A stretch of DNA of 64,000 nucleotides from Candidatus Woesearchaeota archaeon (GCA_964344605.1 CAYFNR010000002.1:2140-66139); one strand, 5' to 3'. Counted from the stretch's first letter, positions 10,434-55,331 are shown. Translations and numbers: made by a program. Notes: a model not told the origin generated them from the letters alone.

Positions 10434-11580
10434 ACCTTTTTTTACAAAATATGCGCCTAAGAAGCTCATAGATATTTGTGGGCAGTCTAGAGGATTACAC
10501 AAATTAGTGTACTTTGTAGAAACCTTCCCAAATAAGAAGAGAGCAATATTAATTCACGGTCCACCTGGCTGTGGCAAGACCGCAGCAGTTTATGCTTTGG
10601 CGTACGAGAAGGATTACGAGGTGGTTGAGCTTAACTCCTCAGATTTCAGGAACAGCGAAAATATAAAAAATGTAATGGGGGCCGCCAGTAAGCAAGCAAG
10701 CCTGTTCAAGTCTAAGAAAGTAATTTTAATTGACGAGCTCGATGGAATATCTGGAACAGCTGATAAGGGTGGCGTGCAGTCTATTATAAAAATAATAAAA
10801 GAAACGAGCTTTCCAATAATATTAATAGTAAATGATCTATGGAATACTAAGTTCAGAACTTTGAGGCTTTACTGTGAACTTACGGAATTTGCTACATTAC
10901 AAAGCTCAGATATTGTTCAGAGGTTAAAGAAGATATGTCAAGTGGAAGGTATAAAACATGAAGATATTTCTTTGAGCAAATTGGCAGCAGCATCTAATGG
11001 GGACCTTAGGGCAGCCATAAATGATTTACAATTAATCGCGTCCGAAAATAAAGAGGTGAATCGTGAATCTGTAGCCGCCGGGGGCAGAGATTATGAAGAA
11101 AAAGTCTTCAATGCTTTGAGACTTATATTCAAGAGCTTCGACAGTAAGACTGCTTTAAGGGCTGTTGATGATTTGCCAATGGAACCTCAACAATTTATTT
11201 ATTGGTTAGACCAGAATATTCCAATGGAATATCGTCTGCCTAATGAGATACAAAAAGCCTATAAAGCATTGTGTGATGCAGACATTTTCCGGTTCCGTAT
11301 ATCACGGTATGTAAATTATTTCCTGTCCGCTGGTGTTCAACAAGCAAAAGAGCAAGCTAGAGGTGGCTTCTCAACTTATTCAAGACCAGAAACTCTGCAG
11401 AAAATATTTATTCGCGCCGCCAAGAATAGAAAATCCAAAAATATCGCAGCGTCTTTAAGTTCAGAGTTTCACGCCTCAGCCAAAACAATTCAGCAAAGTT
11501 TTTTACCATATTTTGACTACATTAGAGAGGTCAACCCAGAAATGGGCAAAGATGTTGACGCTCTTTTAGAGGGCAAATAA
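10420..11580 (+). CDS. rfcL: replication factor C large subunit
   Basis: Walker A HGPPGCGKT, ILIDELDG Walker B, overlaps rfcS by 14 nt (operon). Confidence 0.85.
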   Translation: MKSHEPFFTKYAPKKLIDICGQSRGLHKLVYFVETFPNKKRAILIHGPPGCGKTAAVYALAYEKDYEVVELNSSDFRNSENIKNVMGAASKQASLFKSKKVILIDELDGISGTADKGGVQSIIKIIKETSFPIILIVNDLWNTKFRTLRLYCELTEFATLQSSDIVQRLKKICQVEGIKHEDISLSKLAAASNGDLRAAINDLQLIASENKEVNRESVAAGGRDYEEKVFNALRLIFKSFDSKTALRAVDDLPMEPQQFIYWLDQNIPMEYRLPNEIQKAYKALCDADIFRFRISRYVNYFLSAGVQQAKEQARGGFSTYSRPETLQKIFIRAAKNRKSKNIAASLSSEFHASAKTIQQSFLPYFDYIREVNPEMGKDVDALLEGK

Positions 11581-14086: not shown

Positions 14087-16774
14087 ATGGCCACACAACC
14101 TTGGCATTCTATGAATATACAAGATGTATATTCTAAATTAGGGTCTTCTAAAGAAGGATTACATACCGTCGAAGCACATCGTAGACTAGCTAAATATGGA
14201 CCAAATGAGTTGGCTAAAAAGAAAGAAGTTTCTGCTTTGAAGATTTTCGTATCACAGTTCAAAAGTGTCTTGGTTCTACTTCTTGTCTTAGCCATAGGAA
14301 TTTCCATTGTTATTGGACATGTAGTGGACGCCGCTGTTATTGGTATTATTGTTGTCGTCAACGCTATACTTGGTTTTATACAAGAATACAGGGCCGAGCG
14401 TTCTATGGAAGCCCTTCAGAAACTTGCTGCACCGAAAGCCCATGTTCTTCGTGATGGAAAGGAAATAGAAGTGGAAGCATCTAAACTTGTTCCGGGAGAC
14501 ATCATCATATTATCTGAGGGAGATAAAGTTCCAGCTGATGCACGTCTTATAGAAGCTATTAATTTAGAAACTATTGAGGCGAGTCTCACTGGAGAATCGA
14601 CTCCTGTTTTGAAAGATATTGCTTTATTAAAAAAGGAAAAACTTACTGTTGGTGAGCGCAAGAATTCTGTTTTTATGAATACCATTATCACTAGGGGCCG
14701 TGGGATAGCTATAGTTACAGATACAGGGATGGAGTCTGAAGTTGGTGGCATAGCGAAGCTTCTTCAGGTTGTTGATAAAAAGCCGACCCCTCTCCAAATC
14801 AAACTTGCAGAGGTTGCCAAAAGTTTAGGTATAGCAATAATTGTGATTGCTGCAGCAGTTTTCGGAATAGGAGTTTTACGTGGAGAAGAAATTTTTGAAA
14901 TGTTCCTTACGGCTGTCAGTCTTGCCGTTGCTGCAGTGCCAGAAGGCCTACCTGCTGTAGTTACTATAACACTGGCGATTGGGCTGAATCGTATGGCTAA
15001 AGCTAAAGCGTATGTCAGAAAGTTGCCGGCTGTTGAGACCCTTGGTAGTGCAAGTATTATTTGCTCGGACAAGACAGGAACCTTGACAAAAAATGAAATG
15101 ACTGTGAAGAGGTTGTACACAAATCATAAAATAACCGATGTTTCTGGAGAAGGTTACGAACCAAAAGGAGAATTCACACAGTCAAACAAAAAGATAGATC
15201 CAATAAAGAACAAAAATGTTGAGATGCTTCTACGTGCAGCAACACTTTGCACAACATCAAGTTTGTATAAAGGGAAGTCCGGATGGTATGTTACTGGCGA
15301 TCCTACAGAAGGCGCTTTGGTTGTATCGGCCGATAAAGCCGGGCTCGATAAGGTAGAGCTTATCAAGAAAAAATTCAAACATATTGGTGAGATACCTTTC
15401 GACTCTAATCGAAAGATGATGTCTGTCATATATCAAGACCAAAGAGGCAAGAAAATAGCGTATATCAAAGGAGCACCAGAAATTATGTTGGATAAATGTG
15501 AATATATATTCTTAAATGGAACGGTTAAGAAGATAACAAAAGAAGATAAAAGGAAAATCAAGGCCGTCAATCAGAAGATGGCAAGTTCTGCCCTTAGAGT
15601 TCTGGGTGTAGGGTATAAGTATGTTTCGGAGAAGACTGACAAGTTTACTGTGCAAAACATCGAGAACAAGATTGTTTTTGTTGGCCTACAAGGAATGATA
15701 GACCCACCAAGAGAAGAAGTTAAGCCAGCGATAGAGAAGTGTAAAACTGCTGGAATAATGCCCATAATGATTACTGGAGATCACGCAATCACTGCGCAAG
15801 CCATTGCTATTGAACTGGGACTTGCGAAGGAGGGAGATAGAGTTGTTGTTGGCGATGAGTTGAATAAAATGTCTAGCCACGAGTTGTCTTCTATTGTGGA
15901 TAAAGTTAAGGTATATGCCAGGGTTTCTCCCGAACATAAAGTGAAGATAGTAGAGGCGTTGAAGCACAAGAAATACATTGTTGCCATGACAGGAGATGGA
16001 GTAAATGATGCTCCTGCGTTGAAACGAGCAGATATTGGCGTTGCTATGGGTGTCAAAGGCACAGACGTTGCTAAGGAAGCTTCAGATATGATTCTCGGCG
16101 ACGATAATTTCGCAACTATTGTGTCTTCAATTGAAGAAGGTCGTGGGATATATGATAATATACGGAACTTCATCCGCTACCTTCTCTCCAGTAATGTTGG
16201 TGAAGTTCTGACAATATTTGCCGCGGCGCTTGTAGGTCTCCCTCTCCCCCTTATAGCGGTCCAACTTCTTTGGATGAACCTTTTGACTGACGGGCTTCCC
16301 GCTTTGGCTCTTGGTGTTGACCCACCAGAGGAAGGGATAATGACTCGGCCCCCGAAGGACCCGAAAGACAAGGCAATATCAAAAGATACTTGGATATTTT
16401 CTGCTATTGTGGGGGTAATTATGATGATTGGAACATTATTACTGTTCCAGTTGAATTTAGATAGAGGCATAGAATCAGCAAGAACTATGGCCTTTAGTAC
16501 AATGGTCATGTTCCAAATGGTTAATGTGTTTAACTCCAGATCGGAAAAGTCGTTGTTTGAAGAGCGTAATATATTCAATAACACATATCTGCTACTTGCA
16601 ATTTCAATGTCCTTGATACTTCAGTTGGCTGTAGTATATCTGCCATTCATGCAACCGCTCTTCAGCACAGCCCCACTTAATATGGTCGACTGGGTTTGGA
16701 TAGTCGGAATAAGTCTGTTTGTAGTATTTGGAATTGAGATTAAGAAAAGATTATTTGTTAAAAAGTCCAAATAA
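14087..16774 (+). CDS. P-type cation-transporting ATPase, type IIA (Ca2+-ATPase-like)
   Basis: TGES actuator motif, phosphorylation site CSDKTGTLT, PEGLP in TM4, TGDGVNDAPAL hinge, 895 aa with ~10 TM segments. Confidence 0.9.
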   Translation: MATQPWHSMNIQDVYSKLGSSKEGLHTVEAHRRLAKYGPNELAKKKEVSALKIFVSQFKSVLVLLLVLAIGISIVIGHVVDAAVIGIIVVVNAILGFIQEYRAERSMEALQKLAAPKAHVLRDGKEIEVEASKLVPGDIIILSEGDKVPADARLIEAINLETIEASLTGESTPVLKDIALLKKEKLTVGERKNSVFMNTIITRGRGIAIVTDTGMESEVGGIAKLLQVVDKKPTPLQIKLAEVAKSLGIAIIVIAAAVFGIGVLRGEEIFEMFLTAVSLAVAAVPEGLPAVVTITLAIGLNRMAKAKAYVRKLPAVETLGSASIICSDKTGTLTKNEMTVKRLYTNHKITDVSGEGYEPKGEFTQSNKKIDPIKNKNVEMLLRAATLCTTSSLYKGKSGWYVTGDPTEGALVVSADKAGLDKVELIKKKFKHIGEIPFDSNRKMMSVIYQDQRGKKIAYIKGAPEIMLDKCEYIFLNGTVKKITKEDKRKIKAVNQKMASSALRVLGVGYKYVSEKTDKFTVQNIENKIVFVGLQGMIDPPREEVKPAIEKCKTAGIMPIMITGDHAITAQAIAIELGLAKEGDRVVVGDELNKMSSHELSSIVDKVKVYARVSPEHKVKIVEALKHKKYIVAMTGDGVNDAPALKRADIGVAMGVKGTDVAKEASDMILGDDNFATIVSSIEEGRGIYDNIRNFIRYLLSSNVGEVLTIFAAALVGLPLPLIAVQLLWMNLLTDGLPALALGVDPPEEGIMTRPPKDPKDKAISKDTWIFSAIVGVIMMIGTLLLFQLNLDRGIESARTMAFSTMVMFQMVNVFNSRSEKSLFEERNIFNNTYLLLAISMSLILQLAVVYLPFMQPLFSTAPLNMVDWVWIVGISLFVVFGIEIKKRLFVKKSK

Positions 16775-18457
16775 GTCCGATATAATTTTTGAAATCCATT
16801 CACCAATATTACGCTTTCTTACATCTACTTTAATTACTTGACTTTCTTCAATTCCATCTCCAGATAGAGTCAGAAACAACTTTTCTGTTCCCACAAAGTA
16901 AGCCTCTTTTGAGAATAATACGGTCTGATTGTCATTTATTCCTAAGTATATTTGTTCGCAGTCTTTTGAGGCATCTTCTAAACAAATGGAAAGATCTGAG
17001 ATTGGCGCATTTCCTGAGTTTGACAACTCCACTTCTATGCTAAAATTTTCATTTAAGTAAGCAACAGCCGGTACTTTCAAATTAACTTTTAGATTTGGAG
17101 CAAATCTACCTTGAGTCGGTACATCTTCTTGTACACCTAATATCTGTCGAGCCTCTTCAAGAGAAATTACATCATTTGATTGCGGGCTCACTTTGAAGCT
17201 CACGCTTTTCTCGTCTCCGAAGAGAGTAGCACCTCTTATTGTGTAAGTATATGCAAATCCAGTGTCTAAATCTTCGGGAGTTTGTATAATCCAGCCTACT
17301 TTCAGGGAGTTATGTGGTGGCAAAAGTACAGACTTTTGATTCTTCCCAACTATTTTAGGAGCGGCCGTCAGGAAGGCATCTGGTACCAAGTAAAAATCTT
17401 CCTTATTCTCTAAGGACATCCAAATTATATTATAACTACCAAATCCCACTTCTTCCTTTTCTACCCAAATTCTATTTGTCACAAATTTTGGGAGGTTTTC
17501 TTCTTTTCTGTTCAAATCTACAGAGGTTGATGGTTCATCAGTCGAAACATCTCCACCAATCCATGAAAATCTAAGAGATGGTGCCTCTGGACCTTCAGAT
17601 ATCTGTGTCTTGATATGTGTTGGATCTATCCAGCCAAATTCTCTAAAAGTAGGATCAAATGGTACCCACCCAACCTTAGGTAAGTAAATTTCTGTCCAAG
17701 CATGAGCGTTAAACTTCTCACCATAGACGTTACCATATGCATAACCAGATATATAACGTGCCGGAATACCTACACTTCTTGATAAAGCAATAAATAGATT
17801 AGAATATTCAACACAAACACCTGTTTTATCTTCTAAAACTGTGCTTGCTTGTTCTATTCGCCCAAGATAATCCAAATCATAAGATACTTCATTAGAGACA
17901 TACTTGGCCAACTTGTAGGCGGCGACATACCCGTCCGTTTCTCCAAGTACAATTTCATTCGCCTTTTGTTTTATAGCTAAATTATCACTATCTATTTTAG
18001 TTGTAGGTTCCAAGTACTTCCTATATCTATGTGGTATGTCTGAGAAAGGAAAGGGTTGAGAAGAGGTTAGTTTTTTGATATCAAACTCTGAATTTATACT
18101 GGATGAAAGAGTATAACCTTCTTCACCTGCTGGCAGGCTCCTCCAAGTAAATAAATAATAACCATCTTCAAGCGAGGCTGAAGGGTTAGTCTGCAAATTT
18201 GAGACTGAGATATAGTAATCGTCTTGGGGAAAAGAGTGTAATTCTAAGTTGAGCTCGTTTAGATAGGTTTGTGAGGGAACTATTTCAAAAATACCTCTTT
18301 CGTTAAACTCCAAATCAAGATAACTTACGACTTTTGGGTTTGTTATTCCTAGATTTTGTGGATTTTCAACGCCAAAGTTTATATTGGGGTTAACTTCCTC
18401 TTCTGCACCAGAAATAGTTAAAATAAATAATAGAAGGAAAAAAAGCAGTTTCCGCAT
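16751..18457 (-). CDS. secreted transglutaminase-like (Cys-His-Asp) domain protein
   Basis: Signal peptide MRKLLFFLLLFILTISG; core GVCVEYSNLFIALSRSVGIPARYISGY..HAWTEIYLP..GWVPFDPT matching transglutaminase-like cysteine protease fold. Confidence 0.7.
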   Translation of the reverse strand: MRKLLFFLLLFILTISGAEEEVNPNINFGVENPQNLGITNPKVVSYLDLEFNERGIFEIVPSQTYLNELNLELHSFPQDDYYISVSNLQTNPSASLEDGYYLFTWRSLPAGEEGYTLSSSINSEFDIKKLTSSQPFPFSDIPHRYRKYLEPTTKIDSDNLAIKQKANEIVLGETDGYVAAYKLAKYVSNEVSYDLDYLGRIEQASTVLEDKTGVCVEYSNLFIALSRSVGIPARYISGYAYGNVYGEKFNAHAWTEIYLPKVGWVPFDPTFREFGWIDPTHIKTQISEGPEAPSLRFSWIGGDVSTDEPSTSVDLNRKEENLPKFVTNRIWVEKEEVGFGSYNIIWMSLENKEDFYLVPDAFLTAAPKIVGKNQKSVLLPPHNSLKVGWIIQTPEDLDTGFAYTYTIRGATLFGDEKSVSFKVSPQSNDVISLEEARQILGVQEDVPTQGRFAPNLKVNLKVPAVAYLNENFSIEVELSNSGNAPISDLSICLEDASKDCEQIYLGINDNQTVLFSKEAYFVGTEKLFLTLSGDGIEESQVIKVDVRKRNIGEWISKIISDLFGLFNK

Positions 18458-24926: not shown

Positions 24927-25802
24927 TTATTTCTTGCTCTTTTTTTCTTTTTTTATAGCTTCTTTCTGCAGAATAAAAATGTCTTCTTTGCTGAGCTTTT
25001 TCTTCTTCTTGAATTTATCCCTAACAGCTTCTGTTTGTTTTTGAAGAATTTCAGCGCCAGCTTTAGCTCCACCAAACATCACTCTTCCGGTAGCCATTGG
25101 TAGGCGTCCGAGACGGCTTAGATTTTTTGCCAGAAGTATGTTAAGTTGGTTAATCTGGGACTTCATAGATCTTAATGCTGCGCGTGTATTCGAACGTTCT
25201 TTCTTTATGTTAGATATTTCTTTAGATATTATTGTCAATTGATTAAAAATGTCTGTACTCTCTTTGGCCGAACCTTGTATTTTTCCATGGTACTCATCTG
25301 CAGATTGTTTGGCATTTGTTATTAAGCCCCTAATTTTCCTAAGCTCATGAAGTTCCCCTAGGCTGTTATTAATCTCTTTTAGGTCTTTCTTTAACTTGTT
25401 TATTTTGGACATGTGCTCCTTTTCTTTGGAGAAGTTAAGAACTTCTGTTTGAACTAAAAATTCAAGATTATTGATTTCTTTCTTGACTTTATTCCGCCTT
25501 TCAATTTTCTTTTTTGTACCAGAAAGAGTCTTCTTTACTTTATTTAGCTCCCCAATCAAATTTTGTACGGATTTATTCTTTTCTTCACGTAATCTCTTCA
25601 ACTCTTTGGTTCTTTTGTCAACATTATCTTTTTTCTCTTTGAGTTGGTTGGCTTTTATTATTAATTTATTCAGAGTTTCCTCTAGCTCATTTTTTTCTTT
25701 GTACTTTGATTCTTTTTTATCGCCGAGCTCTTTGAGAGATATGTTTAGCTTACGTACTTCACTCGTCACCTCATCGAGCTCACCGTTCTTTTTTTGTACC
25801 AC
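24927..25802 (-). CDS. Lys/Glu-rich coiled-coil protein (archaeal COG1340-like?)
   Basis: ~230 aa of heptad-like K/E/L-rich sequence, C-terminal basic tail; located between rpl12 and alaS in same transcription direction. Confidence 0.45.
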   Translation of the reverse strand: MVQKKNGELDEVTSEVRKLNISLKELGDKKESKYKEKNELEETLNKLIIKANQLKEKKDNVDKRTKELKRLREEKNKSVQNLIGELNKVKKTLSGTKKKIERRNKVKKEINNLEFLVQTEVLNFSKEKEHMSKINKLKKDLKEINNSLGELHELRKIRGLITNAKQSADEYHGKIQGSAKESTDIFNQLTIISKEISNIKKERSNTRAALRSMKSQINQLNILLAKNLSRLGRLPMATGRVMFGGAKAGAEILQKQTEAVRDKFKKKKKLSKEDIFILQKEAIKKEKKSKK

Positions 25803-47003: not shown

Positions 47004-47537
47004 GTGAATATTGCTAAGGAAGACATGCGATTTATCAATGGCATGCACAAAACAATTACCGCGGCTTTGACCCAGGACGAGCAGGAGCTTGCTGAGCTTG
47101 GGAATGCCAAAAAAGTCCTTGCAGAGACAGAAAAACTAGTGAGAATGCTTATTGCAGACACCACACAAATAGAGCAATTAGAAGCTGCACATGGATTACA
47201 TGGCCAGATGGCCGGGTACCAGAAGCAAAACCAGCAGACGTTCAAAATGATAAAGTCTGACATCTACAGCGCCCATGAACTAATAGAGAGAATTTCCAAG
47301 AATGTGAAGTATCTTAGGAAAGTTTCGGGCAATGTTTCTTCGACGAAATTAAAAGAAGCCACCCGCATCAGAACAGAGCTGAATGCCTTCGCAAACAAAA
47401 CACTTATGGCGACCAAAGAGTACAGTGCGAGACTTCAGGGATTGTTCAAAGACTCTCAGTATGAAGAAACTTTAGCTACTGCCACAATGGGTCTTCCGAA
47501 CCAAGGAAGAATCCCGAAGGAAGAATCCCGTAATTAA
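47004..47537 (+). CDS. hypothetical helical protein (177 aa)
   Basis: Intact ORF; no recognisable motif. Confidence 0.35.
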   Translation: MNIAKEDMRFINGMHKTITAALTQDEQELAELGNAKKVLAETEKLVRMLIADTTQIEQLEAAHGLHGQMAGYQKQNQQTFKMIKSDIYSAHELIERISKNVKYLRKVSGNVSSTKLKEATRIRTELNAFANKTLMATKEYSARLQGLFKDSQYEETLATATMGLPNQGRIPKEESRN

Positions 47538-48148
47538 GCCTGCATTTCTGGATAAAGAATATCATTTATGCCTGTTTCTTTTAATTCATTGAATTTGCGT
47601 TTTAGCTTTCTGTTCCCACACCTTTCCAAAGCTTTTTCCAATCGCTTTCTCAGCATTCCGGGACCGATTAGCTCGGCAAATTCTTCGTCATAAACATCCA
47701 ATGCCAATTCATTTTTAGTCAGCGCTGCTTCAAGAACACTTTGCATCGTTAGGTAAGCTATGGACGCTATTTTAGTCCGATGAGTGAATTCGTCAATGAT
47801 TTCTTCTGGGTAAGGAGAATCTTCGTATATTATCTCACCTGCTCTAAGGTACATCTCTCCAGCTAGATAATATCCGTGCCTAGCCGAAGCTAAGCGCAGA
47901 ACCACAGAACCTTTCTTTGCTCTGATTGCTAAATCCAGGTCAGACGCAATTTCTTCGAGGGGCAGTCCCAACTCTTCCGGAACATCCCCTTCCAAATCCA
48001 CTTCTGTGTCCCCCAAGGATGATGCTAATGTGAGATTCTTTATTAACTGGTAAACATATCCTGCTTTGTGTGTTAGTTCTTCTTCCCCCAAGTCCTTCGT
48101 TATGAAAGCAAGATAATCATACTCAGCCATACTCTCCCTTGAAACCAA
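47534..48148 (-). CDS. hypothetical acidic protein (204 aa)
   Basis: Intact ORF convergent with 47004 gene (stop codons overlap). Confidence 0.4.
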   Translation of the reverse strand: MVSRESMAEYDYLAFITKDLGEEELTHKAGYVYQLIKNLTLASSLGDTEVDLEGDVPEELGLPLEEIASDLDLAIRAKKGSVVLRLASARHGYYLAGEMYLRAGEIIYEDSPYPEEIIDEFTHRTKIASIAYLTMQSVLEAALTKNELALDVYDEEFAELIGPGMLRKRLEKALERCGNRKLKRKFNELKETGINDILYPEMQA

Positions 48149-48927: not shown

Positions 48928-49270
48928 GCACCAAAAAATTTCTAGAAAAAGGCATAGATATTCTGAATTGTACCATTACTTAAACAAGGCGGCACACCAA
49001 GCCCTGGCAGTAGAGCATGAACTCCGCAGTGCAGAGACTTACAGTAGGGAGATGGTCAATTTAGAGGCTGAATTACACGATTTAAAATCGAGACTTCGAA
49101 GTGCCAAAGGGTACGAGAAAAGAGACATCCTAAATAGAATCACTGCAAAGCGTACTCGTTATAGTAGGTTAAGTAAAGGTATACACTGGGCAAGGATAGG
49201 TAGGCTGCTTAAAAGGATGAAGGATATGCTGCGAGATGTTTCTAGAGCTGCCAGACTTGCTAGGCGCTAA
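48911..49270 (+). CDS. hypothetical Arg-rich basic protein (119 aa), locally GC-enriched
   Basis: ORF overlapping dphB 3' end by 17 nt and pelota 3' end by 11 nt; composition differs from neighbours. Confidence 0.3.
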   Translation: MVRETEHQKISRKRHRYSELYHYLNKAAHQALAVEHELRSAETYSREMVNLEAELHDLKSRLRSAKGYEKRDILNRITAKRTRYSRLSKGIHWARIGRLLKRMKDMLRDVSRAARLARR

Positions 49271-50306
49271 ATCTTAGCAGTGCTCCAATTCCACTGAGGC
49301 CATTAAGTTTTTGTCCAGCATCGCCTTTCGAGTTGATTATGTGGACTACGCCCCCTAACTTCTCAACTTCGTCAATTATTGGTAGAATTTCTTCTTTAAG
49401 GTCGGCCAGTTTGGAGTCAGTGATTAACAAAGTTTCAACAGAACCTGTTGGAGCATACTTTGAGACTTTAGCTTTCTTGTAAGCTACTAGATCACTATCT
49501 TTTGCTATTTCTTTAAGTAAGGTTTCCACTATCTTTGACTCTTTGGCTGCCTGAGTCTGCTTGGTTATCTTATCTAGGGCGCCACCATTAACTAATTCTT
49601 GGACGCCCTTTTCATCTCCTGAAGTGGTGTTTTCCAAATGAATCTTCTTGCTGAATTTAGGATAAAGTTCCTTGCACCTCTTGAAGACAATTTCTTTCCA
49701 GAATAGAGGGCTACCAATAATTACAACTTCAATATCTTCCCTTGCTTTTTCATTTATATTCTCTACCAGTCTATCAATATCTTGTTGGGGCTTCCTTTGC
49801 TTTTCTTCATAGAGCTTCCTACTTAAGCGTAGACTCATTTCTCCTTGAAGAGTATACCCCGCAGCTGTAAGAAATGCAAATGTGGCACGCTCATCATCTA
49901 AAACACAAACCAGGGCTTTTGGAGCAGCTGAAGCTTCCTCTGCTTCCTCCAACCTTTTAATCTGAAATTCTCTCCACTGTTCTTTGTAGATTTCGAATGT
50001 AGTACCTAATTGAATATCTAAAGAATGCGCAGAATGGAGTGGAACAGCTTCAATTTCATTTTCTACAGTTCCGTGGATTTTAAGATGTGCTCCCAAATCT
50101 ACATCCTCTACTTTAATTTGGACGTATATCCCTCGCTTTACTGCTTTCTGCCTTTCGCCTTCTCCTGCAAGCTTGACTTTCCTTGAACTTTGGCCTGAAA
50201 CCAGATCTCCTGCTTCGATGACCTTACTCAAGTGCCATAGATCATCTAGACTATCAATTTTGATTTTAGCAATCCCTAACTTGCGTTTGAAGCCAAGTAT
50301 TTTCAT
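49260..50306 (-). CDS. pelA: Pelota / Dom34 (mRNA surveillance, aRF1 paralogue)
   Basis: N-terminal Sm-like domain MKILGFKRK..LDDLWHLSKVIEAGDLV, central and eRF1-like C-terminal domains, 348 aa. Confidence 0.85.
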   Translation of the reverse strand: MKILGFKRKLGIAKIKIDSLDDLWHLSKVIEAGDLVSGQSSRKVKLAGEGERQKAVKRGIYVQIKVEDVDLGAHLKIHGTVENEIEAVPLHSAHSLDIQLGTTFEIYKEQWREFQIKRLEEAEEASAAPKALVCVLDDERATFAFLTAAGYTLQGEMSLRLSRKLYEEKQRKPQQDIDRLVENINEKAREDIEVVIIGSPLFWKEIVFKRCKELYPKFSKKIHLENTTSGDEKGVQELVNGGALDKITKQTQAAKESKIVETLLKEIAKDSDLVAYKKAKVSKYAPTGSVETLLITDSKLADLKEEILPIIDEVEKLGGVVHIINSKGDAGQKLNGLSGIGALLRFSA

Positions 50307-50382
50307 ACGGGATTTATCTATTACAACCTATTAAATCTTTGCTAGAGGAACTTTTATTAATGTCCATAAACTAAGATAAGCA

Positions 50383-51540
50383 ATGACCAAAAATTATAGA
50401 CATGACCCTGTTGCAGCAGTAATTCTTCTTACAATACTTGCTGCCTTATTCTTCTACATATTTTCGGTTCCGACCGAAGTGAGAGAAGAGCTCTTGCCAT
50501 CAACGGTAACTTACGAAAATACATGGCTCACATCTTCTCCAGGGGGAGTCCCAATCCAAAAAGCCGAAATTGATTTTAAGCTCGTAACTTTTCCAACAAC
50601 TACTGTAGACAACACTCTAAAAGCGGAACCCACTCTACTCTCAAACCAATTTTCAGTTTCATCTGGAGTATATAGTGCTGTACCACAAGCTTTCAGCTTT
50701 AACATTGATGATACTGCTGCTGTGTATGATGTCAGAGTGCCCTTGACCGTAGCCGGCAAAAGCGGCTCAGGAAGGCTGGAGGCTTCTTTAAACGGACAGA
50801 AAATATATTCCGCAAGCAATGTCATTGGAGAGCAAGCGGTAATCATAATCCCAACACATTTGTTGCAAACTGGGGCAAATTCCTTAACCTTTTCAGCAAG
50901 TTCACCAGGATTTAAGTTTTGGCAGAGCAATTCCTATGTGTTATCTAGCGCCACAATAGAGATAAGTAGATACAGTTCCAATCAGGCTTCTGTAGCGAGA
51001 CCATTTTCCTTGTCGAGCGATGAGGCAGCAAATATTGAAAGCTCCGAGCTTACTATGTTCGTCCGTAGATTGTCGACTGTGTCCACTAATTTAGAAGTAG
51101 GGTTGAATGGAGCTACTTTGTTTAGCGGAATCCCTCCTTCAACATTCTCCGTTGATGTTCCAACAAATTTGCTCAAATCTGGGCAGAATGATATAACTTT
51201 CAGTGTCGACGAGGAAGGCAAATACGAGATGAATTTCATTGTAATCCGAATACAAACTGAAACAATTAAAGGAGGGTTAGATTATTTCTTCACTATAAGC
51301 TCCTCTGATTGGAGAAGGGTACAGGGCGGAGCCTATACTTGTGAAATGCTTATTAGAAAAACCACGGGGGCCAATAGCGTAGTTGTCCAGCTAAATTCCC
51401 ATACAGGAGAGTACCATTTTTCTGCAGGAGAAGTTAAAGTTGATGTCTGCGAACAGCTCAGAGAAGGATCAAACAAGATAAGCATAACTTCTGATGAAGC
51501 GCTTGATTTGGCAGATATTAGTGTTGGAATAAAACCTTAG
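50383..51540 (+). CDS. hypothetical N-terminally anchored extracellular protein with two internal repeats
   Basis: N-term TM VAAVILLTILAALFFYIFSV; Ser/Thr-rich beta-like ectodomain; repeats LNGQKIYSASNVIGEQAVIIIPTHLLQTGANSLTFSASS / LNGATLFSGIPPSTFSVDVPTNLLKSGQNDITFSVDEEG. Confidence 0.55.
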   Translation: MTKNYRHDPVAAVILLTILAALFFYIFSVPTEVREELLPSTVTYENTWLTSSPGGVPIQKAEIDFKLVTFPTTTVDNTLKAEPTLLSNQFSVSSGVYSAVPQAFSFNIDDTAAVYDVRVPLTVAGKSGSGRLEASLNGQKIYSASNVIGEQAVIIIPTHLLQTGANSLTFSASSPGFKFWQSNSYVLSSATIEISRYSSNQASVARPFSLSSDEAANIESSELTMFVRRLSTVSTNLEVGLNGATLFSGIPPSTFSVDVPTNLLKSGQNDITFSVDEEGKYEMNFIVIRIQTETIKGGLDYFFTISSSDWRRVQGGAYTCEMLIRKTTGANSVVVQLNSHTGEYHFSAGEVKVDVCEQLREGSNKISITSDEALDLADISVGIKP

Positions 51541-51541
51541 A

Positions 51542-53296
51542 ATGGTTGATTATAGCCACCTAGGGGGAGTTGGTACAAAAACAAATGCTCTCTTAGAAGG
51601 CCACAGTCATGAAGATATACATGAAGGAGGACATGATTTTCTTAGAGATTTAGGTATTAATCATGGACCGAGGAGGGAGGCAATTCTCACGGAGGCTGAG
51701 AGAAATGTGGTAGCGGGACCAGCAGCACCTGCTGAGCCACCAGCTCAACCTCCAGCAGTGCCAGCAGGATCAGCACCTCCCCCAATAAGGATGCCACCGC
51801 CAGCAAGATCGCCACTTGGCCCAATACCTGCAGACTTAGACGCTGAGGGAGAAGGGAAAAATAAAGTTATAAAGTTCTTTGGAATGGTTGTCACCTTGGT
51901 GCTTATTTTCTTAGTTTCTAGTTTTGTATTAGGTCCAGGATGGGCTGTATTGATTGTTGGCATAGTAGCTTTCATTTTTATTTTTATATATTTTTTAGGT
52001 AAAAAGAAAGGCAAGGTTGACTGGGCAATATTTATTATTTTGCTTATTATCTTAGTTGTTGGTGGGTTGTGGGTAGGAAATAATATTGCTAAGTCCACTA
52101 CTGGCAAAGGCCTCTGGGAGTTGGGCTCTGAGGCTTTGTTTGCTATTGAATTGGGCCGTGAAGAAACAAGTCCGCAGCGCAATACCCTAGCTGCCCTTTT
52201 TAAAGGTGAGTGGGATCTAGATCAGCAAAAATGGGAGTCCAGACAGGTCCAAGATAGTTATGTCGTTCCTGAAGATGCAGGGGTTGTGTTTGAGGATATC
52301 GCTCCTTCACAGAGCAACTTTTTCTCCGACGAGATTCTTGAAGTTACGGGAGATGTTACTATAGTGAGTCTTTTTGAAGATGGGCAAGATATAGAAATAA
52401 CCACTCCCTTAGAGATTGACGTTGAGATTCAAAGATGCAAAAGTGCCTTGAGCGAAGGACTTATTGGGCGAGCATTTGATGAATTTTCAGAACTTTTCGG
52501 TGGAAGGATAGCTATGACTGACTGGTGTGGAAAGTCCTGGACATGCGAGATACCTGGAGAAGACCCAGTTAGTGACAACAAATTTGAGGTCGACAAGGCA
52601 TATAACAGGTTCTTTGCGTGTGAGCATTCAGGAATAACTACGTCAGAAAATATTATTGATTTAAATGCTAAAGTTGTTTGGGATTATACTACACAGGCTG
52701 TTTCAGGCAAGCAGGTATTTGTGGCGAGCCCAGACGCGCTGGCTCGCATAGAGGACCTTAGGACCCATTATAATATACCAAGTACAGCATTTGACCCTTG
52801 GTCTATTAGTGATGGTACAGTGAATTTTGGTGTAGGTTTTGATAAAAAATGGGAATTTTTGAGGGCAGGTTCAAAGTACCGGCTAGGAGTTAGTGTTGTT
52901 AATGATGGCAGAGGTGATGTTGTGGAGATAAATGATTTAGAAGTTAGCATACCTCACGATGAAGATATCATCATGATTTCAAGTGATAAGGAAGAGATTA
53001 GGAATAAGGCTGATATAGGAAAGGAGTCAGGACAGTTCGTTTTTGACAGGATAGATGAAGTAAATGGTACAGTCCCCGTTAAAGTCTTTAAACTCAAAGG
53101 TCTACCTCTTAATCTTAAGGATGGAAAAGAAGAGATAGAACCAGGTTTCTCCAATACTTATTATCTCAAACTAACTATAAATGAAGATTACTTGCAAGGA
53201 TCAAATTATCAAAGCTTCTTTACGAAGGCCAAGATTTCTTACGACTATGAACAAGGTAAAAGGACAAGAATAAAGATCAAACCAGAACCTTTTTGA
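51542..53296 (+). CDS. hypothetical membrane protein: His/Pro-rich cytoplasmic N-terminus, 3 TM, large extracellular domain
   Basis: HSHEDIHEGGHDF then PAAPAEPPAQPPAVPAGSAPPPIRMPPPARSPLGP; three hydrophobic helices; ~370-aa C-terminal domain with paired Cys. Confidence 0.55.
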   Translation: MVDYSHLGGVGTKTNALLEGHSHEDIHEGGHDFLRDLGINHGPRREAILTEAERNVVAGPAAPAEPPAQPPAVPAGSAPPPIRMPPPARSPLGPIPADLDAEGEGKNKVIKFFGMVVTLVLIFLVSSFVLGPGWAVLIVGIVAFIFIFIYFLGKKKGKVDWAIFIILLIILVVGGLWVGNNIAKSTTGKGLWELGSEALFAIELGREETSPQRNTLAALFKGEWDLDQQKWESRQVQDSYVVPEDAGVVFEDIAPSQSNFFSDEILEVTGDVTIVSLFEDGQDIEITTPLEIDVEIQRCKSALSEGLIGRAFDEFSELFGGRIAMTDWCGKSWTCEIPGEDPVSDNKFEVDKAYNRFFACEHSGITTSENIIDLNAKVVWDYTTQAVSGKQVFVASPDALARIEDLRTHYNIPSTAFDPWSISDGTVNFGVGFDKKWEFLRAGSKYRLGVSVVNDGRGDVVEINDLEVSIPHDEDIIMISSDKEEIRNKADIGKESGQFVFDRIDEVNGTVPVKVFKLKGLPLNLKDGKEEIEPGFSNTYYLKLTINEDYLQGSNYQSFFTKAKISYDYEQGKRTRIKIKPEPF

Positions 53297-53343
53297 CCAA
53301 AGCATAAAGTATAAAAACGAGCAACTGCTTTTCATACTTAAAC

Positions 53344-54342
53344 ATGCTGTCGTTTGATAGATTAAAATCTACTTTACTCCCTTTTTTAATTGTAGCCGTT
53401 GTTTTAGTTAGTGGATGTGTAAATCAAACGGCTGACGAAGGAGTAGTTCCTACAGGGATGGAGGGAATAGTTGTGACTTTTTTTCAAGGAGCACCGCCCT
53501 CTGTTTTGGGGGAAGGTGAGACTTTTGACGCTGGAGTGACCATTGAGAATAAAGGTGATCATGAAGTGGTTGTTGGAGATGCGGAGATATATCTTAGAGG
53601 GGTCAATCCTACAAACTTCGGATATGGGGGTGTTGGTCAGATACCAGCTAATCAGCAAGTACTTTCTAATCTAGTGGGAGCACAGTTGTTGGATAATCAA
53701 CTTATTGGTGGACAGGATGCTTTGACTTGGCCAGACCTGTGTTATCGTGTTGATTTAAATACAGATCAAGTTGTCGATTTCATAGCGCAGAGCTGCTACA
53801 AATATAAAAGTAAAGCTCGTTTTGACGGTTGCTTCAACGAAAATGCGTACAGACAAACAACGGGCACCGAGCTCTGTTCGGTTTTAGGTGATAAATTAAT
53901 TTCAAATAGTAGGGCGCCAGTCCAAATTACAAGCGTGTCCGAAAGCCCGGCCGGAGAAGGAAAGTTTAGGTTTATAGTGAAAGTTGGGAACCTAGGTACA
54001 GGTCAAGTCTATACTGAAGATTTAGGAACAGCTTGTGTTGACGCGGCAATTAGAGAACTAAATGTGGTGCACATAGATGGAATTAAAATTGGTGCAACTT
54101 CTCTTGATTTGGGAGACACAGCCACAGTTACATCTGCCACGTGGCTTGGGACGCAGAAGCCATATTTTAAGCTTGTAAATGGAGAGGGACAGTTCATGTT
54201 TACATATGCTCCATCATTTACAGCTGTGCCTATTTACATAGATCCTGTGGAAATAACTCTGAGTTATGGGTACTCTGACCAGGTAATTACCTCAACTCAG
54301 ATTTCATCTATACCTGGAGTGAACCCCCAATCTGTATGTTAA
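53344..54342 (+). CDS. hypothetical secreted protein, putative lipoprotein (lipobox LVSGC)
   Basis: Signal-like N-term ending VVLVSGCVNQT; paralogue of next gene. Confidence 0.55.
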   Translation: MLSFDRLKSTLLPFLIVAVVLVSGCVNQTADEGVVPTGMEGIVVTFFQGAPPSVLGEGETFDAGVTIENKGDHEVVVGDAEIYLRGVNPTNFGYGGVGQIPANQQVLSNLVGAQLLDNQLIGGQDALTWPDLCYRVDLNTDQVVDFIAQSCYKYKSKARFDGCFNENAYRQTTGTELCSVLGDKLISNSRAPVQITSVSESPAGEGKFRFIVKVGNLGTGQVYTEDLGTACVDAAIRELNVVHIDGIKIGATSLDLGDTATVTSATWLGTQKPYFKLVNGEGQFMFTYAPSFTAVPIYIDPVEITLSYGYSDQVITSTQISSIPGVNPQSVC

Positions 54343-54380
54343 TCCAATAAATATATATTCTAACTACGTGTACGTTCTGT

Positions 54381-55331
54381 ATGAGATTTAGGTCTTTGCT
54401 CATATTTTCTTTGATTGTCTTAGTTAGCGGATGCTTAGGACAGACTCCTGAAGAAACACTATCAACTGGACAGTTTATTGGAGGAGATAAGGGTCTTGAG
54501 CTTTCTTATGTTGAACTCCCTCCCAGAGTTTTTCAAAATACTCCATTTGAAATAGATGTAATGGCCGTTAATGAAGGTGAGACAGACATTCCTGTAGGTG
54601 TAGCTACATTCAAACTTAGCAATTCTAGAGTTTTTGGTCTGACTGAAGAAGAAGCTGTTAAGATAAATGAAGAGTCTCTTGCAAAGGCGGCTGAGTTTGG
54701 TGGCTTTGGAGGACAGACTTTCATAACCTTCGAAGTTCCAGGATATTCGGGAGGTGTTTTAAGTACGGAGTCTCCAGTTCCAATATCTATAGATGCTTGT
54801 TATCCTTATGAAACTAATGCGGTTGTAGATATATGTATTGCGCGCAGCGATTTTTCTGAAGTTTGTACTCCTTCCGAAATAAAAAATACACAAAATAGCG
54901 GATCTCCAATACATGTTTCTGAGGTTGAGCAAGTTCTTAGTTTACTAATACTCGAAAAAGTTAGAATTGGAATTATTATAAGAGTGGAAATTAAAGGGGA
55001 ACTAACAGACAGAATCTATAGCACAGCAGTAGAGGGAGTCGCTGAGGGTACTACTTGTGGTGAAAGAAACTCTCAATTTGAAAATCAGATTTCTATCCAA
55101 GATATTAGAATAGGAAGTGCAACCCCTTACACAGCTCAGGAAATAGAAAGTTCATGTGGTTCAAGTATTATAGGTTTGAATGCTGAAGGTAAGGGAAGAG
55201 TCCAGTGTAATTTCGAGATTAAAGATTATGTTTCAGGTGCAGGAGATTATGTCGAAAGAATGACAATAAAACTTGGATATCTTCACTCAACCTTGGCAAA
55301 CACAAACATAAATATAATACCTGTTGAGTAA
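54381..55331 (+). CDS. hypothetical secreted protein, putative lipoprotein (lipobox LVSGC), paralogue of 53344 gene
   Basis: N-term LIFSLIVLVSGCLGQT; shared blocks with upstream protein (..DICIARSDFSEVC vs ..FIAQSCYKYK; GSPIHVSEVEQ vs RAPVQITSVSE; KVRIGIIIRVEIKG vs KFRFIVKVGNLG). Confidence 0.55.
   Translation: MRFRSLLIFSLIVLVSGCLGQTPEETLSTGQFIGGDKGLELSYVELPPRVFQNTPFEIDVMAVNEGETDIPVGVATFKLSNSRVFGLTEEEAVKINEESLAKAAEFGGFGGQTFITFEVPGYSGGVLSTESPVPISIDACYPYETNAVVDICIARSDFSEVCTPSEIKNTQNSGSPIHVSEVEQVLSLLILEKVRIGIIIRVEIKGELTDRIYSTAVEGVAEGTTCGERNSQFENQISIQDIRIGSATPYTAQEIESSCGSSIIGLNAEGKGRVQCNFEIKDYVSGAGDYVERMTIKLGYLHSTLANTNINIIPVE

What the first reader, a model, noticed from the sequence alone, without database searches (positions are those of the whole stretch)
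50383..55331. Four-gene same-strand cluster of membrane-anchored and lipobox-bearing proteins with no enzymatic component
Four large ORFs (385, 584, 332 and 316 aa) are packed head to tail with gaps of 1 to 48 nt, so they are probably one operon. None has a recognisable catalytic or ATPase motif. The first has an N-terminal anchor and an internally duplicated beta-rich ectodomain. The second has a His-rich and proline-rich cytoplasmic head, three TM helices and a large Cys-containing ectodomain. The third and fourth are paralogues that both begin with an L-V-S-G-C lipobox-like signal. In a reduced, probably symbiotic or episymbiotic archaeon, such a module is a good candidate for a cell-surface, adhesion or host-contact apparatus.
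Basis: partly seen in the sequence, partly recalled or inferred. Interest (0 to 1): 0.75.

Follow-up and report, generated by a model that had tools for sequence, protein, structure and literature searches.

The report
Conserved DPANN archaeal surface-protein gene module
These four genes are a slimmed-down copy of an unnamed five-gene set found at the same chromosomal spot in many Woesearchaeota/Nanoarchaeota, and they encode membrane-tethered outer-surface proteins that probably form a complex used for contact with outside surfaces, though its function is untested.

Summary
Four same-strand ORFs of 385, 584, 332 and 316 aa lie at 50383-55331 with gaps of 1, 47 and 38 nt. None matches an enzyme family.

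- g1 has an N-terminal membrane helix and three (not two) galactose-binding-like jelly-roll repeats.
- g2 has a His/Pro-rich cytoplasmic head, three TM helices and an ectodomain with four Cys.
- g3 and g4 are paralogues (25% identity, E 7e-13), both with an L-V-S-G-C lipobox.

New findings:

- The cluster is a reduced form of a module, Pelota(-) | g1 | g2 | three lipoproteins | RFC-S(-). I found it in 80 species-level Woesearchaeota/Nanoarchaeota genomes.
- The lipoprotein family has 3,682 clusters at 50% identity, no Pfam model and no solved relative. Its model is two beta-sandwich domains.
- The C-terminal part of the g2 ectodomain is homologous to the lipoproteins (hhalign 92.7%).
- In one relative, an AliA/AliB lipoprotein-biogenesis gene sits inside the cluster.
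- 64 of 78 g1 orthologues carry a prepilin-type K-[G/A/S]-Q signal. The window's lineage has lost it.
- 3 of 56 g2 orthologues carry a lytic-transglycosylase domain. The window's g2 does not.

Surface location and co-conservation are well supported. An adhesion or host-contact role remains an inference; a structural envelope role is the main rival.

The parts
50352..50360 (+). TATA-like element (TTTTATTAA) 31 nt upstream of the g1 start codon; candidate promoter for g1-g2
   Evidence: One search gives the position. Similar TTTATTAA/TTTATATA elements lie upstream of g1 in L002, L003, L014, L010 and L005. Inferred, not tested.
50383..51540 (+). g1: 385-aa protein with an N-terminal membrane helix (aa 9-29, nt 50407-50469) and three galactose-binding-like jelly-roll repeats (about aa 84-176, 190-279, 296-385)
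   Evidence: ORF. Hydrophobic segment. Repeat E 1e-6. PF14683 CBM-like 28.4 bits against cut-off 27, plus weaker BetaGal_ABD2 and rhamnosidase jelly-roll hits. Orthologues in L002, L003, L005, L008, L010 and L014 and in 80 genomes. The single-sequence AF2 model is poor (pLDDT 43) and shows only the N-terminal helix and beta strands.
51542..53296 (+). g2: 584-aa polytopic membrane protein. His/Pro-rich, probably disordered cytoplasmic head (aa 1-105, nt 51542-51856); three TM helices (aa 106-184, nt 51857-52093); ectodomain (aa 185-584), whose C-terminal part (about aa 425-584, nt 52814-53293) is homologous to g3/g4
   Evidence: composition, topology. hhalign of nine g2 ectodomains against the g3 family gives probability 92.7%, E 4e-7 over 115 columns; controls with g1 give 0.9% and 0.2%. 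The earlier six-sequence profile gave 72%. Orthologues vary from 353 to 1264 aa with an estimated 1 to about 11 hydrophobic (TM-like) segments.
53309..53317 (+). TATA-like element (GTATAAAAA) 35 nt upstream of g3; candidate internal promoter
   Evidence: The same TATAAAAAC motif is found at the same place in L002 and L003.
53344..54342 (+). g3: 332-aa lipobox lipoprotein. Signal peptide aa 1-24, lipobox L-V-S-G-C with Cys25 (nt 53416-53418). Two beta-sandwich domains and six further Cys.
54346..54357 (+). TATA-like element (AATAAATATATA) 35 nt upstream of g4; candidate internal promoter
   Evidence: ATAAATATTTAA is in the L002 gap, and TTTATATA elements precede the 2nd and 3rd lipoprotein genes in L014 and L010.
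54381..55331 (+). g4: 316-aa lipobox lipoprotein, paralogue of g3. Lipobox L-V-S-G-C with Cys18 (nt 54432-54434); six further Cys.
   Evidence: Both g3 and g4 best-match the third lipoprotein of three-paralogue loci.
49260..50306 (-). Pelota gene, divergent left neighbour. Not a functional part, but the conserved positional anchor of the module.
   Evidence: Pelota lies divergently within 2.5 kb in 51 of 59 loci that have upstream DNA.

Best explanation
The four genes encode a membrane-tethered complex on the outer face of the cell membrane of a Woesearchaeota/Nanoarchaeota-type (DPANN) archaeon. It is the reduced local version of a five-gene module (g1, g2, three lipoproteins) that sits between Pelota and RFC-S in this lineage.

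Proposed working:
- g3 and g4 are exported by Sec, lipid-modified on the lipobox cysteine by the archaeal AliA/AliB pathway, and held close to the membrane by a linker of about 15 residues.
- g2 is anchored by three TM helices and shows a homologous C-terminal beta-sandwich domain on the outside. The three paralogous ectodomains would pack side by side into a hetero-oligomeric base, while the disordered head of g2 reaches into the cytoplasm.
- g1 is held by a conserved N-terminal helix and a flexible linker of about 50 residues. It projects three carbohydrate-binding-like jelly rolls outward and binds glycans on an external surface, most plausibly a host or partner cell wall.
- In relatives, extra host-facing domains are bolted onto the same chassis: SLT lytic transglycosylase, Ig-like repeats and Cys-rich modules.

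Shown: the genes, the anchoring signals, paralogy, the fold class of g3, and deep co-conservation.

Inferred: lipidation, complex formation, glycan binding, and any role in cell-to-cell contact.
For: - Anchors and topology.
- The lipobox Cys is invariant in the family alignments. A lipobox-like motif is present in 145 of 152 family ORFs from the genome census and in about 22 of the 24 N-termini printed for nine loci.
- An AliA_AliB (PF01889) gene is embedded between g2 and the lipoprotein genes in L012. AliA/AliB are the archaeal lipoprotein lipidation factors, and lipoproteins are prevalent in DPANN (PMC12462473).
- g2 ectodomain is homologous to the g3 family at 92.7% probability, E 4e-7; g1 controls are below 1%.
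- The g3 model is all-beta with two sandwich domains, pLDDT 79.
- g1 CBM-like or galactose-binding-like hits pass Pfam's cut-off in the window and in L003.
- Co-conservation: the same order in L002, L003, L005, L008, L010, L012, L014 and L016. Census of 80 species genomes: Pelota 51/59; g2 41/46 (four more have a large ORF in that slot); exactly three lipoprotein genes 39/46; RFC-S 35/46.
- Outward-facing add-ons: an SLT domain in 3 of 56 g2 orthologues. Castelle et al. 2021 proposed that such large SLT proteins of Woese-/Pacearchaeota bind bacterial cell walls (PMC8204110).
- A prepilin-type K-[G/A/S]-Q signal in 64 of 78 g1 orthologues. Class III signal-peptide proteins with a galactose-binding domain are noted in archaeal Epd-type pilus loci as likely adhesion factors (bioRxiv 10.64898/2026.04.22.720090).
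Against: - There is no experimental or expression data for any member.
- The window's own g1 lacks the prepilin-type motif (YRHD-PVAAV) and its g2 lacks SLT. The two most adhesion-like features are therefore borrowed from orthologues.
- The proteins evolve only a little faster than housekeeping neighbours. The module sits at a fixed locus among information-processing genes. Both fit a constitutive structural role as well as, or better than, a host-specific one.
- The CBM-like Pfam match in the window covers only 24 residues, and no sugar-binding residues were tested.
- Complex formation could not be modelled.
Confidence: 0.45

Rival explanations
1. Structural envelope layer. The lipoproteins, g2 and g1 form a constitutive membrane-proximal protein coat (an S-layer substitute or S-layer anchor). 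It would stabilise the membrane of these small cells and have no specific role in host contact.
For: - The module is nearly universal, single-copy and position-fixed among housekeeping genes in 80 genomes.
- Sequence divergence is moderate, similar to neighbouring genes.
- The linkers between the lipid anchor and the first domain are short (sequence).
- Three conserved disulfide-capable Cys pairs suggest rigid extracellular domains.
- Separate TATA-like promoters before each lipoprotein gene would allow high expression.
- The family is very large and almost uniform in length, 290-330 aa.
Against: - There is no similarity to any known S-layer protein.
- Four or five different subunits is unusual for a lattice.
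- N-glycosylation sequons are almost absent (0, 1, 1, 0), unlike most archaeal S-layer glycoproteins.
- Carbohydrate-binding-like repeats and SLT or Ig add-ons point outward, to ligands.
Confidence: 0.3
2. Accessory or adhesin set of a type IV filament (Epd/system-1-like) machine encoded elsewhere. g1 would be a pilin-like subunit with a large glycan-binding head, either incorporated into or presented by a pilus-like stalk (compare minor pilins and the Sulfolobus bindosome). g2 and the lipoproteins would form the envelope base.
For: - 64 of 78 g1 orthologues start M-(K/R)-K-[G/A/S]-Q followed by small residues and a conserved hydrophobic helix. This matches the positively charged short leader, small -1 residue and +1 Gln of EppA-type class III signal peptides (PMC3875500; PMC6098224).
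- In L005 a Peptidase_A24 prepilin peptidase gene is the divergent neighbour of g1.
Against: - The window's g1, and those of L002 and L003, lack the motif.
- A strict FlaFind-type pattern, written from memory, matches only 6 of 78.
- The usual +5 Glu of EppA substrates is absent; the orthologues typically read Q-G-G-L-N.
- No ATPase or platform gene was seen next to the module in the loci with called-gene tables. In the 80-genome census the flanks are Pelota and RFC-S, and an A24 peptidase query hit only L005. The census did not search for ATPase or platform proteins.
- No homology test against the M. maripaludis Epd proteins was possible.
Confidence: 0.15
3. Nutrient capture. The lipoproteins are substrate-binding proteins feeding a transporter, as many archaeal and bacterial lipoproteins are.
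For: Lipobox lipoproteins are often solute-binding proteins (general knowledge). A CBM-like protein could capture glycans.
Against: - The g3 model is all-beta with two sandwich domains, not the alpha/beta periplasmic-binding fold.
- No SBP family was found in Pfam or NCBIfam.
- No ABC permease or ATPase appears next to the module in the loci inspected. The 80-genome census was not searched for such genes.
Confidence: 0.03
4. Mobile, viral or defence island, or a chance run of unrelated ORFs.
For: None beyond the absence of annotation.
Against: - No PHROG or PADLOC hits and no meaningful viral structural match.
- Composition is like the rest of the window.
- The flanks are housekeeping genes.
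- The chromosomal position is fixed across 80 genomes.
Confidence: 0.01

Closest known systems
Archaeal lipobox lipoproteins (AliA/AliB-dependent; Haloferax volcanii model, PMC12462473)
   Same: g3 and g4 and their family have an N-terminal signal peptide ending in [L/V/I][A/S/T/V/I][G/A/S]-C with an invariant Cys. One relative has an AliA_AliB gene inside the cluster. Lipoproteins are reported as prevalent in DPANN.
   Different: The mature domains belong to no characterised lipoprotein family. There is no Pfam model, no solved relative and an all-beta two-domain fold. Lipidation is not shown. No AliA/AliB gene was seen within the 64-kb window among the ORFs scanned.
[quoted passage not shown]
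   Same: Most g1 orthologues combine a prepilin-type N-terminus (K-[G/A/S]-Q plus a hydrophobic helix) with a large non-pilin, carbohydrate-binding-like head.
   Different: The window's g1 has lost the cleavage motif. No ATPase, platform or peptidase gene was found linked to the module except the A24 peptidase in L005; ATPase and platform were checked only in the loci with called-gene tables. Partner genes (g2, lipoproteins) are not known TFF components. Homology to the Methanococcus or Sulfolobus proteins was not tested.
[quoted passage not shown] 2021, PMC8204110)
   Same: Same lineages. g2 orthologues in L008/L083, L082 and L086 carry PF01464 SLT C-terminal to the conserved g2 ectodomain, so at least some of those proteins are built on the g2 chassis. 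Like the other Module 98 families, the module is lineage-specific and unannotated.
   Different: The window's g2 has no SLT domain and is about half the median length (584 vs 1008 aa). Only 3 of 56 g2 orthologues have SLT. Mapping to fam00969 itself was not checked.
CARDB / macroglobulin-type Ig-like beta-sandwich surface domains
   Different: The similarity is at fold level only, at 9-13% identity. Whole-protein TM-scores are at most 0.24. The window's g3 and g4 do not hit the CARDB model.

Membership tests
Lipobox lipoproteins (archaeal, AliA/AliB pathway) | N-terminal signal peptide with a hydrophobic core ending in the lipobox [L/V/I][A/S/T/V/I][G/A/S]-C | tested here: met
   g3 reads ...VVLVSGC25 and g4 ...IVLVSGC18. 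The motif definition is from PMC12462473.
Lipobox lipoproteins (archaeal, AliA/AliB pathway) | The lipobox Cys is conserved across homologues | tested here: met
   The Cys is invariant in alignments of 12, 17, 62 and 15 sequences. A lipobox-like motif is present in 145 of 152 family ORFs in 80 genomes.
Lipobox lipoproteins (archaeal, AliA/AliB pathway) | The genome encodes AliA/AliB | not testable with these tools
   Only 64 kb of this genome is available. phmmer with the L012 AliA-like protein found no hit among window ORFs of at least 120 aa. In L012, PF01889 lies inside the cluster.
Lipobox lipoproteins (archaeal, AliA/AliB pathway) | Thioether-linked lipid on the Cys and signal-peptide removal | not testable with these tools
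   Needs mass spectrometry or mobility-shift assays.
Class III signal peptide / type IV pilin-like proteins (g1) | A short basic leader ending in G/A immediately before a hydrophobic helix (EppA type: +1 Gln) | tested here: not met
   The window g1 reads MTKNYRHD-PVAAVILL with no [KR][GAS]Q. 64 of 78 orthologues do have it. Feature description from PMC3875500.
Class III signal peptide / type IV pilin-like proteins (g1) | A prepilin peptidase (Peptidase_A24) and a TFF ATPase plus platform protein, in the locus or genome | tested here: not met
   There is no A24 hit among window ORFs. A24 is adjacent only in L005. In the 80-genome census the flanks are Pelota and RFC-S; ATPase and platform genes were not searched for there. 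The rest of the genome is unavailable.
Galactose-binding-like / CBM jelly-roll domains (g1) | A significant match to a family of the galactose-binding-domain-like clan | tested here: inconclusive
   PF14683 scores 28.4 bits (cut-off 27), but the best stretch covers 24 residues. L003 scores 33.1 bits over 84 residues and L002 26.1. The distant orthologues L005, L014 and L012 give nothing. The structural model is unusable.
Lytic-transglycosylase surface proteins of Woese-/Pacearchaeota (fam00969) | An SLT (PF01464) domain | tested here: not met
   No SLT in the window g2. It is present in the L008 g2 (E 3e-10) and in 3 of 56 g2 orthologues.
ABC-type substrate-binding lipoproteins | An alpha/beta periplasmic-binding fold and a linked permease/ATPase | tested here: not met
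   The g3 model is all-beta. No SBP family was hit. No transporter genes flank the module in the loci inspected.
Class II fusogens / fusexins (HAP2, Fsx1) | A three-domain elongated beta architecture with fusion loops and a C-terminal TM anchor | tested here: not met
Archaeal S-layer proteins | Homology to a known S-layer family, or demonstrated lattice formation and high abundance | tested here: inconclusive
   No sequence or fold relative was found among solved structures. Lattice formation and abundance are not testable here.

The most novel reading that the evidence does not exclude
The module is a previously undescribed, lineage-defining envelope machine of Woesearchaeota/Nanoarchaeota. 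It would be a hetero-oligomer of one polytopic and two or three lipid-anchored paralogous subunits plus a pilin-type-anchored glycan-binding arm. It would link the cytoplasm, through the variable g2 head (coiled coil, Zn ribbons, His/Pro-rich), to the cell surface, and serve as the physical docking or bridge structure of these episymbionts. Lineage-specific effectors such as SLT would be mounted on it.
Probability: 0.25. Interest if true: 0.85.

Novelty: new variant of a known kind. Interest (0 to 1): 0.62.

Why it matters
Woesearchaeota and Pacearchaeota are among the most abundant uncultured archaea. They are assumed to live attached to other cells, but no attachment or envelope structure has been identified for them.

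This analysis turns four hypothetical proteins into a defined target: a five-gene module of surface proteins, conserved in content, order and chromosomal position. It uses three different membrane-anchoring routes: a prepilin-type signal, a polytopic anchor and lipobox lipidation.

- It gives a large, unnamed protein family (more than 3,600 clusters at 50% identity) a genomic context.
- It links the recently discovered archaeal lipoprotein pathway (AliA/AliB) to specific conserved substrates in DPANN.
- It suggests that the large lytic-transglycosylase proteins noted earlier in these lineages are elaborations of one member of the module.
- If the complex is the contact structure, it offers handles for enrichment, imaging and host identification, such as antibodies or tagged ectodomains.
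- If it is a structural coat, it defines the envelope of a major archaeal lineage.

Tried and rejected
- Pfam, NCBIfam, PHROGs and PADLOC on all four proteins gave nothing beyond the weak jelly-roll hits in g1.
- PDB sequence searches with single proteins and with family profiles gave no relatives.
- The afdb50 library was unavailable.
- The search for related loci failed three times with divergent alignments. It worked with a three-sequence g1 alignment.
- Word-indexed homologue searches found only 8-19 relatives. The exhaustive profile search found 3,682.
The single-sequence model was too poor to search with (pLDDT 43). g2 was not modelled.
- Pairwise BLAST did not link g2 to g3/g4 or to the L005 g2. 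Only profile-profile comparison did.
- Pfam on the long TM domains of g2 orthologues gave nothing. A D-[FY]-x-G-Y-G membrane motif turned out to be confined to 15-20 of 64 orthologues.
- A strict FlaFind-like regular expression, written from memory, matched only 6 of 78 g1 N-termini, although the K-[G/A/S]-Q motif is in 64 of 78.
- C-terminal extensions of long family members carry only further beta-sandwich modules and no enzymes.
- Literature searches found no description of this gene cluster.

Full report
**1. The observation**

The window carries four consecutive + strand ORFs exactly as described:

| Gene | Coordinates | Length |
|---|---|---|
| g1 | 50383-51540 | 385 aa |
| g2 | 51542-53296 | 584 aa |
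| g3 | 53344-54342 | 332 aa |
| g4 | 54381-55331 | 316 aa |

The gaps between them are 1, 47 and 38 nt. GC content does not differ from the rest of the window.

The flanks are archaeal housekeeping genes: diphthine synthase, Pelota, uracil-DNA glycosylase, PAC2, aIF2-alpha, GINS and primase. Further out lie IleRS, MCM, AlaRS, FtsZ, SRP54, FtsY, both RFC subunits and Kae1.

No catalytic or ATPase family matches any of the four proteins in Pfam, NCBIfam, PHROGs or PADLOC.

**2. The individual proteins**

*g1.*
- It has a single N-terminal hydrophobic helix.
- It has an internal repeat, aa 98-176 against aa 202-279, at 30% identity and E 1e-6.
- Reading the sequence and the orthologue alignment shows three copies of an 'L-N-G ... 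G-x-N-x-[IL]-[ST]-[FI]' module, not two.
- Pfam's CBM-like family (PF14683) passes its cut-off in the window (28.4 vs 27 bits) and in L003 (33.1 bits). Weaker hits go to other galactose-binding-like jelly rolls.

*g2.*
- It has 6 His in its first 45 residues and 16 Pro in residues 55-100.
- Three TM helices follow, with a KKKGK loop between TM2 and TM3. This places the 400-residue, four-Cys C-terminal part outside the cell.

*g3 and g4.*
- They are paralogues over their whole length (25% identity, E 7e-13).
- Both carry L-V-S-G-C at the end of a signal peptide.

**3. The lipoprotein family**

Word-indexed searches found only a handful of relatives. An exhaustive HMMER profile search found 3,682 cluster representatives at E ≤ 1e-3 and 2,571 at E ≤ 1e-10. 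Nearly all of the 150 best listed are 290-330 aa long.

The family has no Pfam model. Only 9 of 62 members touch CARDB. No relative appears among PDB sequences. The few members that carry a name are 'hypothetical protein' from Woesearchaeota or Nanoarchaeota MAGs.

The lipobox Cys is invariant in every alignment, and six further Cys are nearly invariant.

**4. g2 is a paralogue too**

Pairwise BLAST sees nothing between g2 and g3/g4. A profile of nine g2 ectodomains aligns to the lipoprotein family profile with 92.7% probability, E 4e-7, over 115 columns. A six-sequence profile had given 72%.

The aligned region covers the second domain, including the 'N-x-G-x-G' strand and the terminal 'Y-x-Y' strand. 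Control comparisons with g1 give 0.9% and 0.2%.

The cluster therefore encodes three versions of one ectodomain. One is anchored by TM helices and two by lipid. The unrelated jelly-roll protein g1 completes the set.

**5. Co-conservation**

Close relatives (L002, L003) share the whole neighbourhood. More telling are distant relatives in different contexts:

| Locus | Source | Gene order |
|---|---|---|
| L005/L006 | Nanoarchaeota MAG | prepilin peptidase(-), g1, g2, 2 lipoproteins, aIF2-alpha |
| L008 | metagenome | Pelota(-), g1, g2 with SLT, 3 lipoproteins |
| L010 | Woesearchaeota | Pelota(-), Na/H exchanger, g1, g2, 3 lipoproteins, RFC-S(-) |
| L014 | metagenome | Pelota(-), g1, g2, 3 lipoproteins, RFC-S(-) |
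| L016 | metagenome | g2, 3 lipoproteins, RFC-S(-) |
| L012 | MAG | g1, g2, AliA_AliB(-), 3 lipoproteins |

I then fetched 80 loci from distinct species-level genomes using a g1 alignment. I scored their ORFs with my own HMMs and phmmer queries:

- A divergent Pelota lies within 2.5 kb in 51 of 59 loci that have upstream DNA.
- Of 46 loci with at least 7.5 kb downstream, 41 hit the g2 profile. Four of the remaining five have a 645-896-aa ORF in that slot.
- 39 of those 46 have exactly three lipoprotein genes. Two have two, two have four and one has five.
- 35 of 46 end at RFC-S.
- A lipobox-like motif is present in 145 of 152 lipoprotein ORFs.

The window's cluster is thus a derived, reduced form. 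It has two lipoproteins, both closest to the third paralogue of other genomes. Its g2 is 584 aa against a median of 1008. UDG lies downstream instead of RFC-S, which sits 40 kb away at 9465-10433.

**6. Anchoring signals**

*Lipoproteins.* The AliA_AliB gene embedded in the L012 cluster is guilt-by-association support that the family is truly lipid-modified. AliA/AliB are the only known archaeal lipoprotein lipidation factors, and lipoproteins are reported as prevalent in DPANN (PMC12462473).

*g1.* 64 of 78 orthologues begin M-(K/R)-K-[G/A/S]-Q. Small residues and a highly conserved hydrophobic helix follow; the consensus is QGG(L/M)NAAILVAIIAGLIILYILF. This has the layout of an archaeal class III (prepilin-type) signal peptide with the +1 Gln of EppA substrates (PMC3875500; PMC6098224).
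- It lacks the +5 Glu.
- It fails a strict FlaFind-style pattern, which I wrote from memory (6 of 78).
- The window's lineage (window, L002, L003) has replaced the motif by Y-R-[HS]-D-P. Its g1 is more likely an uncleaved signal anchor.

[quoted passage not shown] That is the closest described analogue of g1. Against membership: the module's flanks are Pelota and RFC-S, an A24 peptidase query hit only L005, and no ATPase or platform gene appears in the loci with called-gene tables. I could not test homology to the Methanococcus protein.

**7. Variable parts**

The cytoplasmic head of g2 is not conserved. It is His/Pro-rich in the window, Glu/Lys/Arg-rich and probably coiled-coil in many orthologues, and contains Zn ribbons in L012. 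The number of hydrophobic segments ranges from 1 to about 11. No Pfam family matches the TM domain.

C-terminal add-ons occur in some lineages. SLT lytic transglycosylase is present in 3 of 56 g2 orthologues. Ig-like, NPCBM-associated or Cys-rich modules occur in g2, g1 and some lipoproteins.

Castelle et al. 2021 described a set of 51 families ('Module 98') specific to Woese- and Pacearchaeota. Most are of unknown function. One comprises large extracellular SLT-domain proteins that the authors proposed bind or degrade bacterial cell walls (PMC8204110). The SLT-bearing g2 orthologues fit that description, so some of those proteins appear to be elaborations of g2. I did not map the families directly.

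**8. Transcription**

TATA-like elements lie 31, 35 and 35 nt upstream of the start codons of g1, g3 and g4. They are conserved in L002 and L003. Similar TTTATATA elements precede lipoprotein genes in L014 and L010.

g1 and g2 are separated by 0-6 nt in the window's clade and in L005, and look translationally coupled. 'One operon' is therefore uncertain. A g1-g2 unit plus separately promoted lipoprotein genes is at least as likely. This is an inference from sequence only.

**9. What it most likely is and does**

Shown:
- Four real, purifying-selected genes. They are 41-57% identical to the L002 orthologues, against 53-69% for the neighbours.
- All four products are predicted to face outward and to be membrane-tethered.
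- Three of them share a domain.
- All are co-inherited with fixed order and position across a large archaeal lineage.

Inferred: they assemble into one hetero-oligomeric surface complex. In this model the g2, g3 and g4 ectodomains form a membrane-proximal base, and g1 sits on a linker of about 50 residues and presents carbohydrate-binding-like modules outward.

I commit, at about 0.45, to a role in binding external glycan surfaces, that is, contact with a partner cell or substrate. The reasons are the CBM-like repeats, the pilin-type signal in most orthologues, and the SLT and Ig add-ons on the same chassis.

The main rival, at about 0.3, is a constitutive structural coat. It is favoured by near-universality, fixed position, moderate evolutionary rate and separate promoters. 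A type IV filament accessory role (about 0.15) overlaps with the adhesion reading. Nutrient-binding lipoproteins and mobile or defence islands are effectively excluded.

**10. Novelty**

Every part is of a familiar kind: lipobox lipoproteins, a pilin-type or signal anchor, and Ig-like and jelly-roll domains. The system as a whole is not described in any paper I could find.

It consists of four unnamed families in a position-fixed five-gene module with three anchoring modes. It has no family model and no solved relative. I rate it a new variant of a known kind, namely archaeal cell-surface or adhesion protein sets. There is a real chance, about 0.25, that it is a distinct envelope machine of these archaea.

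**11. Limits**

- There are no expression, localisation or interaction data.
- g1 and g2 could not be modelled usefully.
- The census rests on small home-made profiles and on 80 loci selected through one g1 subgroup. It shows breadth within Woesearchaeota/Nanoarchaeota but not the outer limits of the distribution.
- Several record titles ('uncultured Methanosarcinales archaeon') are probably placeholder labels.

Noticed in passing
window 50352-50360, 53309-53317, 54346-54357: TATA-like elements lie 31-35 nt upstream of the start codons of g1, g3 and g4. They are conserved in L002 and L003, and TTTATATA elements precede lipoprotein genes in L014 and L010. This suggests leaderless or short-leader transcripts and internal promoters.
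   Followed up: partly
L012:4891-5829 (-), record CAYUBD010000026.1: An AliA_AliB (PF01889) archaeal lipoprotein-biogenesis gene is inserted, on the opposite strand, between g2 and the three lipoprotein genes of a divergent copy of the module. The g2 of that locus has several Zn-ribbon-like CxxC pairs in a 570-residue cytoplasmic head.
   Followed up: partly
L005:1414-2202 (-), record JAHJTO010000060.1: A Peptidase_A24 (prepilin peptidase) gene is the divergent neighbour of g1 in a Nanoarchaeota MAG. Its g1 starts MDKRG-YAVSAP.
   Followed up: partly
L017-L096 (record titles): About 30 TPA MAG records titled 'uncultured Methanosarcinales archaeon' carry the Woesearchaeota-type Pelota-g1-g2-lipoprotein-RFC block. 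The organism label is probably a placeholder or an error.
   Followed up: no
L034, L037, L047, L065, L070 and others (g2 TM domain): Long g2 forms of one subgroup share a strongly conserved membrane motif (...FSFFW-x-N-x-GW...RA..H... and D-[FY]-[FYV]-G-Y-G). It is found in 15-20 of 64 g2 orthologues and is absent from the window's g2. No Pfam family matches the TM domain.
   Followed up: partly
window 50383-55331: N-glycosylation sequons (N-x-S/T) are almost absent from the four surface proteins (0, 1, 1, 0). This is unusual for archaeal surface proteins.
   Followed up: no
window 16751-18457 (-): A 568-aa protein with a transglutaminase-like core domain (PF01841, E 3e-29) is encoded convergent with, and overlapping the 3' end of, a P-type cation ATPase gene (14087-16774).
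   Followed up: no
window 24927-25802 (-); 47004-47537 (+); 47534-48148 (-); 524-1765 (-): Further unannotated or DUF-only proteins in the window. 24927-25802 matches DUF7121. 524-1765 (413 aa) has no Pfam hit. Two small acidic or coiled-coil-like ORFs lie upstream of diphthine synthase.
   Followed up: no
L005:10817-15259 and 16482-end; L008:12204-14777: Inteins (Intein_splicing plus LAGLIDADG) are present in ribonucleotide reductase and SRP54 of the L005 genome, and in RFC of the L008 genome.
   Followed up: no
window 9465-10433 and 10420-11580 (+): RFC small and large subunit genes lie 40 kb from the module. In most relatives RFC-S is the immediate right-hand neighbour, so the ancestral block was broken in this lineage.
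   Followed up: yes
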